The notes under the pieces were generated by a model that saw only the letters and a list, made by a program, of their open reading frames with translations, was not told where the DNA came from and did not search any database. This document shows positions 58,831 to 64,000 of a stretch of DNA of 64,000 nucleotides, in pieces; the first letter of the stretch is position 1; each line of letters starts with the position of its first letter. The position numbers and the translations under genes are program-made. The stretch comes from Bdellovibrionota bacterium (GTDB lineage: Bacteria; Bdellovibrionota; UBA2428), in the NCBI GenBank assembly GCA_964202055.1, contig CAXNGS010000005.1, forward strand, positions 14,978-78,977, read 5' to 3'.

Positions 58831-59688
58831 ATGAATCGAATCCTAAAAGCGATTAGCTTTTCAGCCCTCCTCGTTCTTAATTCTTGCGCCTATCAATATC
58901 GAATTAAAGACGTAGATAAAGCCCTTGATCGAAACGAAAAGCAGCTCGGAAAAATGCAAAAGCAAATCGGAGCTGATTTGAAGAACAAATCTAAAATCTT
59001 GGACTGCTTTAGTGAAGCAGATGGTGCCAGCAATTCTTCACAAGAAATCACGGATAAAATTAATGACCTGCAAGCCAAGCAACAAGAAGTTAGCAAAGCC
59101 ACCGCCCAACTAGAGGGCGGCATGAAATTAGTTCGCGCCAAAATGAAGGGCAAAAAGACCATCAACAGCCAAGAGTCAGACTACCCGGAATTCAAAAAAT
59201 CACTCGACGACTTAGAAGGCCTCAGTAAAAACCTGCAGAAAGCGCTAGATGGCTACAGCAAAAGCTCATCGTCTTTTCAAGCGGAAGCCAAACGCCGCAA
59301 AATTCTCATATTAGACTTTAACACTTTGGCGGCTGACTTAGCCAAAGCCACCTCAAGCACCGAAGCCTCGATAGTTGCCGCAAAAAAAGAGATCGCCTCT
59401 GCTAAAAAAATCATCGGAAAATCAGAAATCAAAGACAAAGAAAAAAGAATGGTCGCTCTCGAGAAAATGAACGGACTTCTTGGGGAAGCTACGGTTGAAG
59501 CCACCGCGGCGAAATCTGCTGCCACAAATTTAAACAAAGAGTTTCCGCAAAAAGGCTTGGTTTGTCTGGCGCCTCACCACTCGGCATATTCCTATATCAA
59601 TGACCTTAATGGACATAGCCAGCGGATTTCAAAAATTGGCCAGGCGCTCAATAAATTATCCAAGGAAGTTTCCGCCAAAGGAAAATGA
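58831..59688 (+). CDS. Coiled-coil lipoprotein, hypothetical
   Basis: The lipobox reads LVLNSCAY, and the protein is Lys/Glu/Ala-rich with heptad character throughout. Confidence 0.65.
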   Translation: MNRILKAISFSALLVLNSCAYQYRIKDVDKALDRNEKQLGKMQKQIGADLKNKSKILDCFSEADGASNSSQEITDKINDLQAKQQEVSKATAQLEGGMKLVRAKMKGKKTINSQESDYPEFKKSLDDLEGLSKNLQKALDGYSKSSSSFQAEAKRRKILILDFNTLAADLAKATSSTEASIVAAKKEIASAKKIIGKSEIKDKEKRMVALEKMNGLLGEATVEATAAKSAATNLNKEFPQKGLVCLAPHHSAYSYINDLNGHSQRISKIGQALNKLSKEVSAKGK

Positions 59689-59699
59689 AGTAGAAAAAA

Positions 59700-61268
59700 A
59701 TGAAGCTAGACGAATATTTTTTGCTGGCGGCCTTTTCTTATCTTCGTGCGGATTCCGCACTCTCTAAAAATTTACAATCCACCCTTTCGTCGTCGCCCTA
59801 TGAATTTATAAAGCCAAGGCTGCCTGGAGAGTTTTCCGTAGGGTCAACCGAGCCTTCGGGCCGCGCCATTGGCTTCTTTGAGTGGGCCGACAGCCTGCGC
59901 CGCGAAGGAATTTTATCGATGAGGGTCTCGCGCATCGGCACCACTCTTCCGGAAAATCTTGAGTTTACGGCGGCTACCCTTTTTGGATCATCGCAAGAAA
60001 TTTTACGAGTGAGCACAAAAATTACCAATCATGATTATTTATTATCACCCTCGGCAAGTCCCCGATTTAAAGCCACTGCTGAAAACTTCGTCTCAATTGT
60101 GGACCAACAAGCAGATCCCGCAGAACTGTGGGCTTATATCAGCGCTCGAATCAAAGAGTTTTTAACTTTGAACGGAGATCTCTTCAATCCAAGCAAAACC
60201 GGCAAGCAACTGATGCTCGAGCTACCCAACAATTCGCTATGGGATCCGCTTGGAGACTCCTTATTTCGAGAGCTACAAGTTTTTGCATTATGTGAAAACT
60301 TTGAAATAGTGATTCCTAAAAACTTATCATCCCTGGTGAGTGCCTTTACTTTTGACGATGAATTCGATGATCCACAGCTCAAAGATTACGTTTACTTTTA
60401 CAAAGAGAAAGACGTGACGATCGAAATGTTCATTGAAATGATCGAGGCCCAAACAGAGAGCCCAGAAGTCCGACGTCGCCTGTCCCAACTATTAATCGAA
60501 AATGAAAAATCAATTTCCTTCGATTTAAATTCGCCGGAATGGAAAATTTTTCTCAAGAAAGCCAGCCCCGAACAATTTGAAACTTTGGTGGGGTGGGCAT
60601 GCCGGGCCGTTTCAAACGTTTGTTCGGAGTTTAAAAGCATGCCGATCATTCCCATCGGTCAGGAATCCTTTTGGGGACCTAGCCCCCTAGACCTTAAACG
60701 AATTAGGGCTCGAGAATCCCTTCAAAAAAAGGGCCTGCAACTGACTCCCTTTGAAGAGCCCTGGCAGTTTTACGAATTTCATCCGATGGATCAGCCCGCA
60801 AAATTTAGCGAGGCTCATGGCTTTCAAGACGATGGAGAGGGCGTAATCGAAGACTACCGCCATTCGCTCGGCCAAATCATTCCCTTTTCGAAGGAAATTA
60901 ATTCACCCTTTACCGAAGCCTTTCGATTGGCAGATTTTATTTTGCAACATCCGAAAACCATCCTTTCCGGCGGGAATTCCGCCACTCTTTTTTTAAATAG
61001 AAATGGTTTTAGCGACCTGGCTGTAGAAATATTTTTGGAAAAAACCGAATTGATTCAAAACCTAAGCTCTATGCGTTTTGAGGAAACCGAAATTATTCAA
61101 TTTCTTTCGCTAGAAGTTTCTGATGTTTTTGGGGGAATGGGTTCGTGGAATGATCAATATTTCCAGGATATTTCCCTACAAGAAAAATTCAACTCGATTT
61201 CTTCTGCTTTAATTTCAAGTCGCAACCTAGTTTTCCAATCACTACTTAATTACAACAGTGGATCCTGA
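59700..61268 (+). CDS. Hypothetical 522-aa cytoplasmic protein, no recognisable domain
   Basis: The long ORF starts 12 nt after the lipoprotein gene. Confidence 0.55.
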   Translation: MKLDEYFLLAAFSYLRADSALSKNLQSTLSSSPYEFIKPRLPGEFSVGSTEPSGRAIGFFEWADSLRREGILSMRVSRIGTTLPENLEFTAATLFGSSQEILRVSTKITNHDYLLSPSASPRFKATAENFVSIVDQQADPAELWAYISARIKEFLTLNGDLFNPSKTGKQLMLELPNNSLWDPLGDSLFRELQVFALCENFEIVIPKNLSSLVSAFTFDDEFDDPQLKDYVYFYKEKDVTIEMFIEMIEAQTESPEVRRRLSQLLIENEKSISFDLNSPEWKIFLKKASPEQFETLVGWACRAVSNVCSEFKSMPIIPIGQESFWGPSPLDLKRIRARESLQKKGLQLTPFEEPWQFYEFHPMDQPAKFSEAHGFQDDGEGVIEDYRHSLGQIIPFSKEINSPFTEAFRLADFILQHPKTILSGGNSATLFLNRNGFSDLAVEIFLEKTELIQNLSSMRFEETEIIQFLSLEVSDVFGGMGSWNDQYFQDISLQEKFNSISSALISSRNLVFQSLLNYNSGS

Positions 61269-61382
61269 GCTCTAACGCAGCACGCCGCCCGTGCTAGGTT
61301 TTCTACAGTCACCATTTTGCCATCGATGGCGCGTTCGCCCATGTGCCGCTAACATACTTAAAGGAAACTAAATTATTTTTAT

Positions 61383-62552
61383 ATGAGATTAAACAAACGC
61401 GGAATTGGATTAGCCGAAATCTTGGTGGCGGTGGCCCTTCTCGGGATGGCCAGCGTGCTGCTCATGAATATGCTCAATGGTTACTTAGACTCAAAAACCA
61501 AAGCCGAGTTCAATCACATTACTAAAAATTTCGGGCTGAATTTGTCCCGGGCCCTGGGGAATCCGGCCACTTGCGGAGCGACCTTAACCGCCGCCAACAT
61601 GTCTTCACTGGACTTAAGAACCTTCCCCAGCATCAATAAAATTATCGACGTTACCGGAGCCACTATTTATCAAGTCGGAAATACTTATTCCGAAGGAACC
61701 CTTAAACTTTTGGGGATTCGAATTCAAAAATTCACACCCGGCGCTGGGCCTGATCGAATAGCCGAAGCCACCGTTTACTTCGATATCGAGTATTTAAAAG
61801 ACACTCCGGTCAGCCCCGTGATGACTTGGGCCTATCATGCAAACGTGCGAACTCCTGACCCTCTGGTCGTAACTCCTGATGCGGAATTTTTCATTGAACA
61901 AGTTGGGGCGGTTGGTAGCGAAAAGGCCATTTGTTCTTCGGGCGTGACCGATCGCGGATACACTCAAACCAATGGCGACACCATGATCGGCCCACTGGCC
62001 ATCGATTTACCGGCAAGCTATGGCCCAATCGTTGCAGGCGACCCTTGCTTTATTTTTCCCATCCCTCCCACAGGCTGCATCGGAACCAACCCATGGTTTG
62101 GCGCGGTTGTCGCTCCGCTACTTCCCGATGAAAGCGATCAAACAGTCCCGCCAACTATTCCTTGGAAGAAAAGGTGGGGGCTTTTGGTAAACTTTGGTTA
62201 CGTAGAAACCAACAAACTTTATCTAGATTCTGATGAGCGACTGAAACAAAATATTCAGAAAATTAAAGCCCCCCTTGAGCTACTGAATCATTTAGAAGGC
62301 AGATCATTTTCATGGAAGGATTCCAATCTTTCCGACTGGGGCTTCATTGCTCAAGATGTCAAAAAATTTGCGCCCGAGCTTGTCCACGCCGGAGAAAAAA
62401 CTGGCTATTTATCAGTGCAATATTTGAGTTTATTGGCCCACCAAGTAGAAGCTCTTAAACTTTTAAAGGGCGAACAAGATGATCGAGCCCTCGAACTTAG
62501 CCAATTGAAAGAGCGGATGTCGAAGCTTCGGGCACAAATGCTCCTAAATTGA
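61383..62552 (+). CDS. Type IV pilin-like N-terminus fused to a tail-fibre-like domain with a C-terminal peptidase S74 intramolecular-chaperone domain
   Basis: The prepilin motif reads MRLNKRG|IGLAEILVAVALLGMASVLL (Gly -1, Glu +5). The tail-fibre motif reads NGDTMIGPL. The C-terminal domain (62211-62552) reads LYLDS|DERLKQNIQKI...WGFIAQDV...LSVQYLSLLAHQV with the S-D-x-R-x-K-x-N-I autocleavage signature. Confidence 0.7.
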   Translation: MRLNKRGIGLAEILVAVALLGMASVLLMNMLNGYLDSKTKAEFNHITKNFGLNLSRALGNPATCGATLTAANMSSLDLRTFPSINKIIDVTGATIYQVGNTYSEGTLKLLGIRIQKFTPGAGPDRIAEATVYFDIEYLKDTPVSPVMTWAYHANVRTPDPLVVTPDAEFFIEQVGAVGSEKAICSSGVTDRGYTQTNGDTMIGPLAIDLPASYGPIVAGDPCFIFPIPPTGCIGTNPWFGAVVAPLLPDESDQTVPPTIPWKKRWGLLVNFGYVETNKLYLDSDERLKQNIQKIKAPLELLNHLEGRSFSWKDSNLSDWGFIAQDVKKFAPELVHAGEKTGYLSVQYLSLLAHQVEALKLLKGEQDDRALELSQLKERMSKLRAQMLLN

Positions 62553-62904
62553 TCAGATACCATTCCCCAACTTTTTCATCGAAATTAAGATTGAAAAGCG
62601 CAGATTGGTCCAAATGCAGCGGCGCCCACTGGTGACAGACTGGATGCGCAACTGAGAAAATTTTAGCGTGTTTTGCCCCTTGGTGCTTATAAACAAAAGC
62701 TATTTCTTGATTCGGCCTGGGATTTGAAGGCAGGCGAACAATGCCCCCGGGTGCCACTGTTATTTGGTGATCAAAGGGGTTGAGTCTTTGTGCCCCACTC
62801 AATTCCGAATTTTTTTTCCGGCCATTTCTTAAAAAGCCCAGAGCCCTCGCGGCCGAAAACCAGATAGCGACAAAAATTAGTGACATGAAACTTCGTCGAT
62901 TCAT
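62497..62904 (-). CDS. Small secreted hypothetical protein (uncertain)
   Basis: It has a signal-peptide-like N-terminus and a His-rich middle. It overlaps the 3' end of the fibre gene by 56 nt on the opposite strand. Confidence 0.3.
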   Translation of the reverse strand: MNRRSFMSLIFVAIWFSAARALGFLRNGRKKNSELSGAQRLNPFDHQITVAPGGIVRLPSNPRPNQEIAFVYKHQGAKHAKIFSVAHPVCHQWAPLHLDQSALFNLNFDEKVGEWYLINLGAFVPEASTSALSIG

Positions 62905-62980
62905 TGAGCTTAGTATATCTCCGAAATCTTTTTACCAAAGTTTAAATATGTAAATATTCTGCCTATAATCACAGTTGAAT

Positions 62981-64000
62981 ATGAACCGATTATATTTAAT
63001 CTCAAAGACACGTCGCTCCGTCGCTGGTTTCTCCATTGCGATGGTTTTAATTTATATGTCGATTGCTTCCGGCATCGGCTATGCGCTCAGCGTCTACATG
63101 GGCAACGTTAGCAAGACCTACAAAGCATCGGAGGTAGAACAAGTCATTTCGCTTTACACCATGAACTTGCAGCGAATGCTAACCCATGCCGAAGCCTGCA
63201 CTCGAACCTTTAACCCCGGCGGAACTCATACTCCCGGAACTTACAATGGCACCACTTATACACTGAATGCAACCGTACCTGCGGATCGACTAGTCTTGGC
63301 TCCTGGAGAGCGGCAACTTCGTTATATTTTAAACACCACAGTTCCAGGAGTCTGTGGAGCCCTTCCCTGTGAAATCAGATCTGAAGCGCTCAATGTCGGC
63401 AGCGGGACTATTGATCAATCAAAGCAAGTTCGAGTTAAAGAGATTCGCATTCGAGACCTGCAAACTCCACGCCCTGCAGGATGTGATCCTTCACGCGGAG
63501 GCGACCTGTGCTCTGAGGTTAAGGTTCATATTTATTTTGAAAAACTTAATGCGCTTTCTCTCACCAAAGTCATTAAACGATCCTTTCAACTTCAAGTCCG
63601 AGTCAACGCGAATTTAAACACCCAATATTGTTATTCCACAATTGATCGCGATTATGCCGATCAAGATTTGTTCGTCAACAAAGCCGGAGACACCATGACC
63701 GGTGAACTCCAAATTAAACTTGATCCAGTTCCCGCCACCCCAACTCGTGCGCTTTATGTAAAAGATGGCTACATTCAAACGAATTTATTTTATATTGATT
63801 CTGATCGTCGGCTAAAGAAAAACATCCATGCGATTTCGGAGCCCTTTAAAATTCTAGATGGAATTCAAGGGCGCGAATTTAATTGGCGCGATTATGGCGA
63901 CAAAGATTATGGTTTCATCGCCCAAGAAGTTGAAAAAAATGAACCACAACTGGTGATTACTGATCCTAAAACGAACTTCAAAGCTATGCGTTACGCCAGC
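62981..64000 (+). CDS. Second tail-fibre-like protein with S74 intramolecular-chaperone domain, 3' end outside window; pseudopilin-like N-terminus lacking Glu+5
   Basis: The frame is open from the ATG at 62981 to the window end; it is absent from the ORF track because no stop is reached. The N-terminus reads RRSVAG|FSIAMVLIYMSIASG, the tail-fibre motif reads KAGDTMTGEL, and the chaperone signature reads LFYIDS|DRRLKKNIHAI...YGFIAQEV. Confidence 0.65.
   Translation, partial: MNRLYLISKTRRSVAGFSIAMVLIYMSIASGIGYALSVYMGNVSKTYKASEVEQVISLYTMNLQRMLTHAEACTRTFNPGGTHTPGTYNGTTYTLNATVPADRLVLAPGERQLRYILNTTVPGVCGALPCEIRSEALNVGSGTIDQSKQVRVKEIRIRDLQTPRPAGCDPSRGGDLCSEVKVHIYFEKLNALSLTKVIKRSFQLQVRVNANLNTQYCYSTIDRDYADQDLFVNKAGDTMTGELQIKLDPVPATPTRALYVKDGYIQTNLFYIDSDRRLKKNIHAISEPFKILDGIQGREFNWRDYGDKDYGFIAQEVEKNEPQLVITDPKTNFKAMRYAS

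What the first reader, a model, noticed from the sequence alone, without database searches (positions are those of the whole stretch)
61383..62552. Chimeric prepilin - tail-fibre protein with S74 autoproteolytic chaperone domain
The N-terminus MRLNKRG|IGLAEILVAVALLGMASVLL is a canonical class III (type IV pilin) signal with Gly-1 and Glu+5. The C-terminal 113 residues carry the endosialidase/T5-pb1-type intramolecular chaperone signature (LYLDS|DERLKQNIQKI...WGFIAQDV...YLSLLAHQVEAL). An upstream GDTMIGPL motif, typical of phage tail-fibre shafts, is also present. S74 chaperone domains drive trimerisation and are then autocleaved, whereas pilins polymerise as monomers into a helical filament. 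A protein combining both suggests a trimeric fibre displayed at a type IV pilus tip via a minor-pilin anchor, or a T2SS-exported fibre. In a predatory bacterium whose prey entry depends on type IV pili, this is a plausible prey-recognition adhesin mounted on the pilus. I am not aware of this fusion being described. A family of tail-fibre-like trimeric adhesins has been reported in Bdellovibrio; whether these ORFs belong to it, and whether any reported member has a prepilin leader, needs a search.
Basis: partly seen in the sequence, partly recalled or inferred. Interest (0 to 1): 0.75.

Follow-up and report, generated by a model that had tools for sequence, protein, structure and literature searches.

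The report
Pilin fused to self-cleaving fibre chaperone
This gene encodes a type IV pilin-like protein fused to a short phage-tail-fibre segment and a self-cleaving trimerisation chaperone; such fusions were counted in a 2021 database survey but never studied, and in predatory bacteria they could form a three-fold cap on a pilus tip.

Summary
ORF 61383-62552 (+) encodes 389 aa. A Peptidase_S74 intramolecular-chaperone domain is at aa 283-335 (51.3 bits, cut-off 22) with the SDxxxK dyad (Ser283/Lys288). The N-terminus is MRLNKRG|IGLAE.

On its own that leader fails the pilin HMMs (N_methyl 14.4 vs 21.2; no TIGR02532). A profile of the N-terminal ~200 aa recovers about 86 proteins. Most carry textbook G|F[ST]L[IVA]E leaders, 44 of 84 scanned carry S74, and several pass both curated cut-offs in one chain.

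So this is a divergent member of a modular minor-pilin family found in Bdellovibrio-like organisms. It is not a MAT fibre and not a prophage remnant.

The architecture is not new. Raynaud et al. 2021 counted 29 N_methyl-S74 proteins and read them as "peptidases".

The shaft is short (median about 60 aa; about 99 aa here). I therefore favour S74-driven homotrimerisation of a tip or priming pilin, as in CofB, over a long adhesive fibre. No pilus or secretion genes lie nearby, so the cognate machine and any tip location remain inferred.

The parts
61383..62552 (+). Whole gene: 389-aa modular pilin-like protein with a fibre stub and an S74 chaperone (stop codon included)
   Evidence: 100% identical protein P0001 in public assemblies
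61383..61403 (+). Leader peptide MRLNKRG (aa 1-7), ending in Gly-1; predicted prepilin-peptidase site after Gly7
   Evidence: read from the sequence; G7 invariant or nearly so in alignments A1, A3 and A4; 79 of 86 family members have a G|xxxx leader
61404..61475 (+). Hydrophobic alpha1-N segment (aa 8-31), with Glu at mature +5 (codon 61416-61418) and Gly at mature +14
   Evidence: read from the sequence; N_methyl 14.4 bits, below threshold; family +5 residue is Glu in 61 of 79; family profile hits solved pilins at profile positions 1-62
61404..61952 (+). Pilin-like domain (aa 8-190): helix to about aa 70, then a beta-sheet; conserved Cys64 (61572-61574) and Cys184 (61932-61934), a probable disulfide
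61953..62228 (+). Linker and short fibre shaft (aa 191-282) with GDTMIGPL (61974-61997) and a lineage-specific Pro/Cys-rich insertion (aa ~211-263)
   Evidence: the motif region matches repeats of giant fibre-like proteins and solved tail fibres 8jov and 9f4a; poorly modelled
62229..62549 (+). Peptidase_S74 intramolecular chaperone (aa 283-389): catalytic Ser283 (62229-62231) and Lys288 (62244-62246), with a C-terminal helix; predicted self-cleavage between D282 and S283
   Evidence: Pfam 51.3 bits; PHROG tail-fibre families; family profile hits 6f45, 8jov and MyRF; cleavage position by analogy with Bd3182
62497..62904 (-). Small convergent gene (135 aa, signal-peptide-like N-terminus) between the two pilin-S74 genes; overlaps the 3' end of gene 1 by 56 bp; a conserved neighbour
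   Evidence: tblastn finds it at the same position in L030 (35% identity, E 4e-13), L031 and L027; called as a gene in L024, L027 and L031
62981..64000 (+). Paralogue 2 (385 aa in full, cut by the window end): leader ...SVAG|FSIAM with Met instead of Glu at +5, the same N-domain, GDTMTG and S74
   Evidence: promoter-like site at 62941-62969

Best explanation
The gene encodes a modular minor pilin of the type IV filament superfamily.

Shown here:
- An N-terminal class III-type leader.
- A pilin-fold domain that is homologous to proteins with canonical prepilin leaders.
- A short tail-fibre-type segment.
- A C-terminal S74 intramolecular chaperone with an intact Ser/Lys dyad.

Inferred sequence of events:
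1. The protein inserts into the inner membrane through alpha1-N.
2. A prepilin peptidase cuts after Gly7.
3. The Cys64-Cys184 disulfide forms in the periplasm.
4. Three S74 domains associate and template trimerisation of the ~90-residue segment ahead of them.
5. The S74 domains then cut themselves off at D282|S283.
6. This leaves a homotrimer of Ile8-Asp282 chains whose three alpha1-N helices form the base of a filament.

By analogy with the homotrimeric minor pilin CofB, that trimer would prime assembly and end up as the cap of a type IV pilus or pseudopilus. The exposed trimeric stub would then be available for binding. Because the shaft is so short in most family members, the main job of S74 here is probably to build the three-fold pilin cap, not to display a long adhesive fibre.
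For: S74 domain and dyad:
- Pfam hit, PHROG hits and the invariant SDxxxK motif.
- The family profile hits solved tail fibres 6f45 (3.4e-16), 8jov (6.3e-15) and MyRF.

Pilin nature:
- An N-domain profile finds about 86 proteins that match at their N-terminus.
- 79 of them have a G|xxxx leader, with +1 Phe in 55 and +5 Glu in 61.
- Of 84 scanned with Pfam, 44 hit S74 and 40 hit N_methyl.
- P0063, P0065, P0089, P0093 and P0128 pass the N_methyl cut-off and the S74 cut-off in one chain.
- TIGR02532 is passed by P0063, P0065, P0089 and P0093.
- The same family profile hits solved pilins (Geopilin 3.8e-6, PilA, TcpA, PilE1, MshA) at profile positions 1-62.
- The Cys pair is invariant.
- The orthologue in L030 starts MTNKKG|LGLME.

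Modularity:
- Other family members carry YadA heads or TSP1 domains, or have no S74.
- The same architectures are listed by Raynaud et al..

Precedent for a trimeric tip pilin: CofB.

Short shaft: 34-522 aa, median 60.
Against: - The query itself fails both pilin HMMs.
- No pilus, T2SS or prepilin-peptidase gene lies in the window or next to any relative examined, so the partner machine is unknown.
- Trimerisation, both cleavages and filament incorporation are untested.
- The full-length monomer model was poor (pLDDT 38), and no multimer model could be run.
- Three identical pilin domains tied to one axis must accommodate the axial stagger of filament subunits. This depends on a ~14-residue linker.
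Confidence: 0.6

Rival explanations
1. The protein is a membrane-anchored periplasmic or envelope trimer. The degenerate leader acts only as an uncleaved signal-anchor or as a Sec signal. The protein stays tethered to the inner membrane or is released into the periplasm, and it never enters a filament.
For: The query, paralogue 2 and the Peredibacter proteins fail N_methyl and TIGR02532. Paralogue 2 and P0002 lack Glu5. No filament genes are nearby.
Against: Gly-1, Glu+5 and Gly+14 are retained in the query and its orthologue. The hydrophobic stretch is over 20 residues long with an embedded Glu, which is atypical of Sec signal peptides. Close family members have fully canonical prepilin leaders. 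The fold is pilin-like.
Confidence: 0.2
2. The protein is a pseudopilus component of a type II secretion or other non-pilus type IV filament system. The trimer would cap a periplasmic pseudopilus, or act as a piston tip, and would not be a surface pilus adhesin.
For: The best structural matches are the T2SS tip pseudopilins GspK and GspI. The weak NCBIfam hits are to XpsI, ComGE, GspJ and GspG models. The E5-less paralogue resembles GspK, which is known to lack Glu5 (general knowledge).
Against: All of these scores are far below the family cut-offs. The profile also hits T4aP, T4bP and MSHA major pilins. No gsp genes are adjacent. This rival differs from the best explanation only in which machine assembles the protein.
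Confidence: 0.15
3. The protein is a member of the Bdellovibrio MAT (mosaic adhesive trimer) fibre family, secreted through Sec and held on the cell surface by the MAT N-terminal domain.
For: It shares the S74 terminus, a tail-fibre-like segment and a Bdellovibrio-like host.
Against: MAT proteins have a signal peptide plus a conserved beta-rich ~130-aa domain and form fibres about 550 A long, in chains of roughly 900-1100 aa. Here the N-domain is a 60-residue helix plus a sheet, with prepilin-type relatives. The protein is only 389 aa. A full-length search returned no full-length relative other than one 357-aa homologue of the same pilin-S74 type (P0002).
Confidence: 0.03
4. The gene is a decaying prophage tail-fibre gene with a chance hydrophobic N-terminus.
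For: PHROG tail-fibre hits on the C-terminus. NCBI annotates relatives as 'tail fiber domain-containing protein'.
Against: The surroundings are chromosomal housekeeping genes (rho, prfA, murA, dnaG, rpoD, ileS, ftsK, tig-clpPX-lon), with no phage genes. The N-domain has no viral structural match. The gene and its neighbours are syntenic across several genomes.
Confidence: 0.02

Closest known systems
Modular type IV pilins with the N_methyl (IPR012902) - Peptidase S74 (IPR030392) architecture, catalogued by Raynaud et al. 2021 (PMC8179133)
   Same: The domain order is the same: a class III leader and pilin module, followed by S74. Variants with YadA-head domains between the two also occur in this family.
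   Different: That survey was a database count (29 + 7 proteins) with no characterised member, and it read the module as a peptidase function. The present protein would not have been counted, because its leader is below the HMM threshold. It belongs to a defined N-domain family from Bdellovibrio-like organisms.
CofB / TcpB-type minor pilins of type IVb pili
   Same: A pilin module is followed by extra beta-rich domains, and the protein forms a homotrimer predicted to sit at the pilus tip. This is the functional model adopted here.
   Different: No sequence relationship was detected; the family profile did not hit CofB or TcpB in the PDB. Nothing in the passages read indicates that the CofB trimer uses a cleavable chaperone, whereas here trimerisation would be driven by a self-removing S74 domain.
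Phage tail-fibre and endosialidase C-terminal intramolecular chaperone (Peptidase_S74): solved examples 6f45, 8jov, eukaryotic MyRF 7dc3
   Same: The S74 domain with its SDxxxK dyad sits at the extreme C-terminus, after a GDTMTG-type fibre motif.
   Different: In phages the N-terminus docks on a baseplate or tail and the shaft is long. Here the N-terminus is a pilin module and the shaft is about 90 aa (about 35-60 aa in most relatives).
Bdellovibrio bacteriovorus MAT fibres (PMC10769870)
   Same: Phage-like trimeric fibre logic in predatory bacteria, and a split into S74 and non-S74 members.
   Different: The N-terminal anchoring domain is different: beta-rich after a Sec signal in MAT proteins, against a prepilin leader plus pilin fold here. 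MAT proteins are also much longer.
Heterotrimeric tip complexes of minor (pseudo)pilins: GspK-GspI-GspJ, and KilLMN/TadEFG tips of Tad pili (PMC12075869)
   Same: Three alpha1-N helices form the base of a filament cap. GspK and GspI are the best structural matches. One paralogue lacks Glu5; GspK likewise lacks it (general knowledge).
   Different: Those tips are heterotrimers of distinct pilins encoded within their machinery operons. Here a homotrimer enforced by S74 is expected, and the genes are orphans.

Membership tests
Type IV pilin / pseudopilin (type IV filament subunit) | Short hydrophilic leader ending in Gly-1, followed by about 20 hydrophobic residues with Glu at +5 | tested here: met
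   MRLNKRG|IGLAEILVAVALLGMASVLLM. Within the window this pattern occurs only at the two S74 ORFs.
Type IV pilin / pseudopilin (type IV filament subunit) | Curated HMM for the prepilin N-terminal cleavage/methylation motif (PF07963 at least 21.2 bits; TIGR02532 at least 16.3 bits) | tested here: not met
   The query scores 14.4 bits on PF07963 and has no TIGR02532 hit. N-domain homologues do pass: P0063, P0065, P0089, P0093 and P0128 on PF07963, and P0063, P0065, P0089 and P0093 on TIGR02532.
Type IV pilin / pseudopilin (type IV filament subunit) | Pilin fold: an extended N-terminal alpha-helix packed on an antiparallel beta-sheet, often with a disulfide | tested here: inconclusive
Type IV pilin / pseudopilin (type IV filament subunit) | Cleavage and N-methylation by a prepilin peptidase, and polymerisation into a filament | not testable with these tools
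   Needs mass spectrometry and pilus preparations. No peptidase or machinery gene is in the window.
Peptidase S74 intramolecular chaperone | PF13884 above the gathering score, located at the C-terminus | tested here: met
   51.3 bits against a cut-off of 22, at aa 283-335 of 389.
Peptidase S74 intramolecular chaperone | Ser-Lys catalytic dyad in an SDxxxK motif | tested here: met
   S283-D-E-R-L-K288, invariant in A1.
Peptidase S74 intramolecular chaperone | Trimerisation-dependent self-cleavage | not testable with these tools
   Needs expression of the wild type against S283A. No multimer prediction was available.
Bdellovibrio MAT fibre family | Signal peptide followed by a conserved beta-rich ~130-aa N-terminal domain | tested here: not met
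   Here the N-domain is a prepilin-type leader plus a 60-residue helix and a sheet. No MAT N-domain sequence was held for a direct alignment.
Bdellovibrio MAT fibre family | Long trimeric fibre (hundreds of angstroms) ending in S74 or an alternative tip | tested here: not met
   The protein is 389 aa in total, with about 99 aa between the pilin domain and Ser283. The family median is 60 aa. Bd3182 and Bd2133 are about 900-1030 aa.
Modular pilins (Raynaud et al. 2021) | A pilin module fused through a linker to a domain that is not specific to pilus biology | tested here: met
   Pilin-like aa 8-190, then a linker and shaft, then S74. The architecture IPR012902-IPR030392 is listed with 29 proteins.

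The most novel reading that the evidence does not exclude
S74-driven homotrimeric minor pilins may be a distinct kind of type IV pilus cap in Bdellovibrio-like predators. The chaperone would lock three pilin modules into a three-fold priming complex and then leave, exposing a phage-type receptor-binding stub at the pilus tip. The adjacent Glu5-plus and Glu5-less paralogues, the conserved small secreted protein and the conserved ~200-aa protein (with a phi29-gp12-like cleavage-site motif) would work with it as one prey-contact module. This would give the pili needed for prey invasion a phage-like targeting device.
Probability: 0.25. Interest if true: 0.8.

Novelty: new member of a known kind. 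Interest (0 to 1): 0.55.

Why it matters
Pili are required for prey entry by Bdellovibrio-like predators. What sits at their tip and recognises prey is not stated in the papers read here. [quoted passage not shown]

A family of pilins that borrow the phage tail-fibre trimerisation chaperone gives a concrete candidate that can be tested genetically. It would also be an example of an intramolecular chaperone building a filament cap, as opposed to a virion fibre.

The work also corrects the standing database reading of this architecture as a pilus-borne 'peptidase'. The S74 module is a single-use folding and self-cleavage device.

The claim is limited because the architecture was already catalogued, and every mechanistic step beyond domain content is inferred.

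Tried and rejected
- A full-length AlphaFold model built on a 5-sequence alignment was too poor to use (pLDDT 38).
- The afdb50 fold library was not available.
- A single-sequence search of PDB sequences found nothing. The family profile was needed.
- A word-indexed search with the N-domain alignment was swamped by generic pilin leaders and scored only 4 proteins.
It did not return the source genome, so the organism is inferred from the names of relatives.
- I looked for pilus, T2SS or prepilin-peptidase genes in the window (about 45 ORFs) and beside seven relatives. None was found.
- The prophage reading was rejected on context and on the lack of viral matches.
- MAT membership was rejected on N-domain type and size.
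- I considered treating the ~214-aa downstream protein as part of the system. It is tightly syntenic in Bdellovibrio-like genomes, but in Halobacteriovorax it sits with radical-SAM genes and without a pilin-S74 gene. It is therefore recorded as a side observation only.

Full report
**The observation**

Pfam places Peptidase_S74 at aa 283-335 with 51.3 bits against a cut-off of 22. PHROG tail-fibre and baseplate families match only aa ~271-386. The catalytic motif SDxxxK is present as S283-D-E-R-L-K288 and is invariant among the closest relatives. The GDTMIGPL motif is at aa 198-205.

The N-terminus is MRLNKRG|IGLAEILVAVALLG. It has Gly-1, Glu+5 and Gly+14, but it departs from the usual G-F-[ST]-L-[IV]-E. 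As a result Pfam N_methyl gives only 14.4 bits (cut-off 21.2) and TIGR02532 does not hit. A relaxed leader pattern applied to all six frames of the window matches only twice, at the starts of the two S74 ORFs.

**A second copy and a conserved neighbourhood**

A paralogue starts at 62981 and runs off the window. Its full 385-aa sequence was recovered from an identical public contig. It has the leader ...SVAG|FSIAM, with Met instead of Glu at +5, followed by the same N-domain, GDTMTG and S74.

Between the two genes, on the other strand, lies a 135-aa ORF (62497-62904) with a signal-peptide-like start. tblastn finds it at the same position in three other genomes.

Just beyond the window lies a 214-aa gene. 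Its product is 50-73% identical to at least 201 proteins from Pseudobdellovibrio, Bdellovibrionaceae, Bacteriovoracia, Bacteriovorax and Halobacteriovorax.

**Is the N-terminus really a pilin?**

The answer comes from relatives. A direct search found one full-length homologue (P0002). It also found two 525-aa proteins, one from Peredibacter starrii, with the leader ETG|IGLVE and a C-terminal S74 domain.

I built a profile of the N-terminal part only and searched 1.8 billion representative proteins. That returned 639 hits in two classes:
- Giant proteins that match only the GDTMTG repeat.
- About 86 proteins of 229-822 aa that match the whole N-domain at their own N-terminus.

Of those 86, 79 have a G|xxxx leader. 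The +1 residue is Phe in 55 and the +5 residue is Glu in 61, typically KG|FSLAEVMVAAGLLG.

Pfam on 84 of them gives S74 in 44, N_methyl in 40, YadA head in 2 and TSP1 in 1. Individual proteins pass both curated thresholds in one chain: P0063, P0065, P0089, P0093 and P0128 pass N_methyl and S74, and four of them also pass TIGR02532. JGI names P0065 a prepilin-type cleavage/methylation protein.

A profile of the whole family, searched against PDB sequences, hits two groups:
- Phage tail fibres with S74 (6f45 at 3.4e-16, 8jov at 6.3e-15) and MyRF.
- Type IV pilins (Geopilin at 3.8e-6, PilA, TcpA, PilE1, MshA), which match profile positions 1-62.

The orthologue of the query in another contig, once its truncated gene call is corrected, starts MTNKKG|LGLMEALVAAG.

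**Structure**

With five sequences the full-length model was poor (pLDDT 38), though it already showed a long helix followed by strands. With a 44-sequence N-domain alignment, aa 1-194 modelled well (pLDDT 83.5, pTM 0.73). The model has a helix at 10-70 followed by a beta-sheet.

I rate the fold evidence as supportive but modest. The sequence-family evidence is the stronger argument. Cys64 is invariant and a second Cys at the end of the domain is at least 90% conserved. This fits a disulfide in an exported pilin-type domain.

**Context**

The window is ordinary chromosome. It contains arylsulfotransferase, peptide permease, Lon, tig-clpP-clpX, lgt, ileS, a PBP, ftsK, lolA, rho, prfA, prmC, murA, dnaG and rpoD. 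There is no phage gene and no pilus, T2SS or prepilin-peptidase gene.

The same holds beside relatives in seven other loci:
- Peredibacter has three tandem copies after ftsA-ftsZ.
- Pseudobdellovibrio has two copies flanking the ~204-aa gene.
- Other relatives lie next to alaS, grpE-dnaK or a radical-SAM/JmjC cluster.

These are orphan pilin genes, so context does not reveal the machine that would assemble them.

**What it most likely is and does**

The domain content identifies a modular minor pilin: a pilin module, a short phage-type fibre segment and a single-use S74 chaperone.

In phage fibres and in Bdellovibrio Bd3182, S74 enforces productive trimerisation and then cuts itself off at the catalytic serine. 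The mature Bd3182 tip ends at the residue before that serine. Together with leader removal, this would leave a 275-residue chain, Ile8-Asp282.

Across the 44 S74-bearing family members, the distance from the end of the pilin domain to the serine ranges from 34 to 522 aa, with a median of 60. The query has about 99 aa, because of a lineage-specific Pro/Cys-rich insertion. Most members therefore cannot carry a long fibre.

I conclude that the chief role of S74 is to lock three pilin modules into a homotrimer. The apparent clash between trimer and pilin has a precedent: the minor pilin CofB forms a homotrimer predicted to sit at the tip of its pilus. Heterotrimeric minor-pilin tips are known or modelled for T2SS and Tad pili.

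Processing, trimerisation, incorporation into a filament and any binding function are all inferred.

**Comparison with what is known**

It does not. MAT proteins are defined by a signal peptide plus a conserved beta-rich ~130-aa domain and are about 900-1100 aa. Neither the main text of that paper nor its supplement mentions pilins.

The fusion itself is not new. Raynaud et al. 2021 searched InterPro for modular pilins and list IPR012902-IPR030392 with 29 proteins, the sixth most common architecture. They also list variants with one or two YadA-head domains before S74 (4 and 3 proteins). They discussed it as a predicted peptidase activity on pili.

My searches of the held literature found no paper that characterises such a protein or links it to predators.

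The present protein is therefore a divergent, HMM-invisible member of a catalogued but unstudied architecture. It sits inside a coherent N-domain family in which C-terminal trimeric modules have been swapped.

**Verdict**

- The claim of an undescribed fusion is rejected.
- The pilus-tip adhesin idea remains an attractive, testable inference. I have modified it towards 'S74-built trimeric pilin cap'.
- Interest is moderate (0.55). It would rise substantially if tip localisation and a predation phenotype were shown.

Noticed in passing
window 62981-64000 (+), continues beyond the window; full gene in L024:7011-8168: A second pilin-S74 paralogue has Met instead of Glu at +5 of the leader (G|FSIAM). 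This is a conserved subfamily (P0021, P0022; P0002 has G|MTSIV). It always lies downstream of, or near, a Glu5-bearing copy in the window and in L030. It is reminiscent of the tip pseudopilin GspK, which lacks Glu5.
   Followed up: partly
window 62497-62904 (-): A 135-aa ORF with a signal-peptide-like N-terminus overlaps the 3' end of gene 1 by 56 bp. It has no family hit, but it is conserved at the same position next to pilin-S74 genes in L030 (35% identity, E 4e-13), L031 and L027.
   Followed up: partly
L024:8171-8815 (about 170 bp past the window end): A 214-aa protein lies immediately downstream of paralogue 2. It is very conserved (50-73% identity, at least 201 homologues) across Bdellovibrio-like organisms and has no Pfam, NCBIfam or PHROG hit. 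Its invariant WNDVADF motif aligns, weakly (E 0.15), on the autocleavage site WS|DFAEY of the phi29 pre-neck appendage protein gp12. One UniRef entry is named 'Peptidase G2 IMC aut...' (truncated in the output).
   Followed up: partly
L024:10307-16446; L027:1-9424; L030:1-7815; L031:1-9583; L029:8598-16588: A cluster of several radical-SAM genes, with JmjC-like, 2OG-oxygenase and methyltransferase genes, flanks the pilin-S74/214-aa locus in every Bdellovibrio-like genome examined. In Halobacteriovorax it accompanies the 214-aa homologue even though no pilin-S74 gene is there.
   Followed up: no
L025:6853-11578 (Peredibacter starrii): Three tandem 525-aa pilin-S74 paralogues lie directly downstream of ftsA-ftsZ, with overlapping stop and start codons.
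   Followed up: no
proteins P0026-P0044 and others: Giant proteins (1,270-5,309 aa) carry up to 21 copies of the GDTMTG-type motif that precedes S74 in the query. They are probably very long repeat fibres or adhesins.
   Followed up: no
window 62013-62171 (aa ~211-263 of the query): A Pro/Cys-rich insertion of about 50 residues (two extra Cys, C222 and C232) sits in the shaft. It is absent from the 319-330-aa orthologues P0033, P0036 and P0037.
   Followed up: no
window 58831-61268 (+): Two upstream genes (285 aa with a lipoprotein-like start, and 522 aa) have no match in Pfam or PHROGs. A terminator-like hairpin at 61279-61295 separates them from the pilin-S74 gene.
   Followed up: no
L030:8555-9547: The public gene call for the query's orthologue (P0036, 320 aa) starts inside the leader. 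The real start 30 bp upstream gives MTNKKG|LGLME. Such truncated calls hide prepilin leaders from domain censuses.
   Followed up: yes
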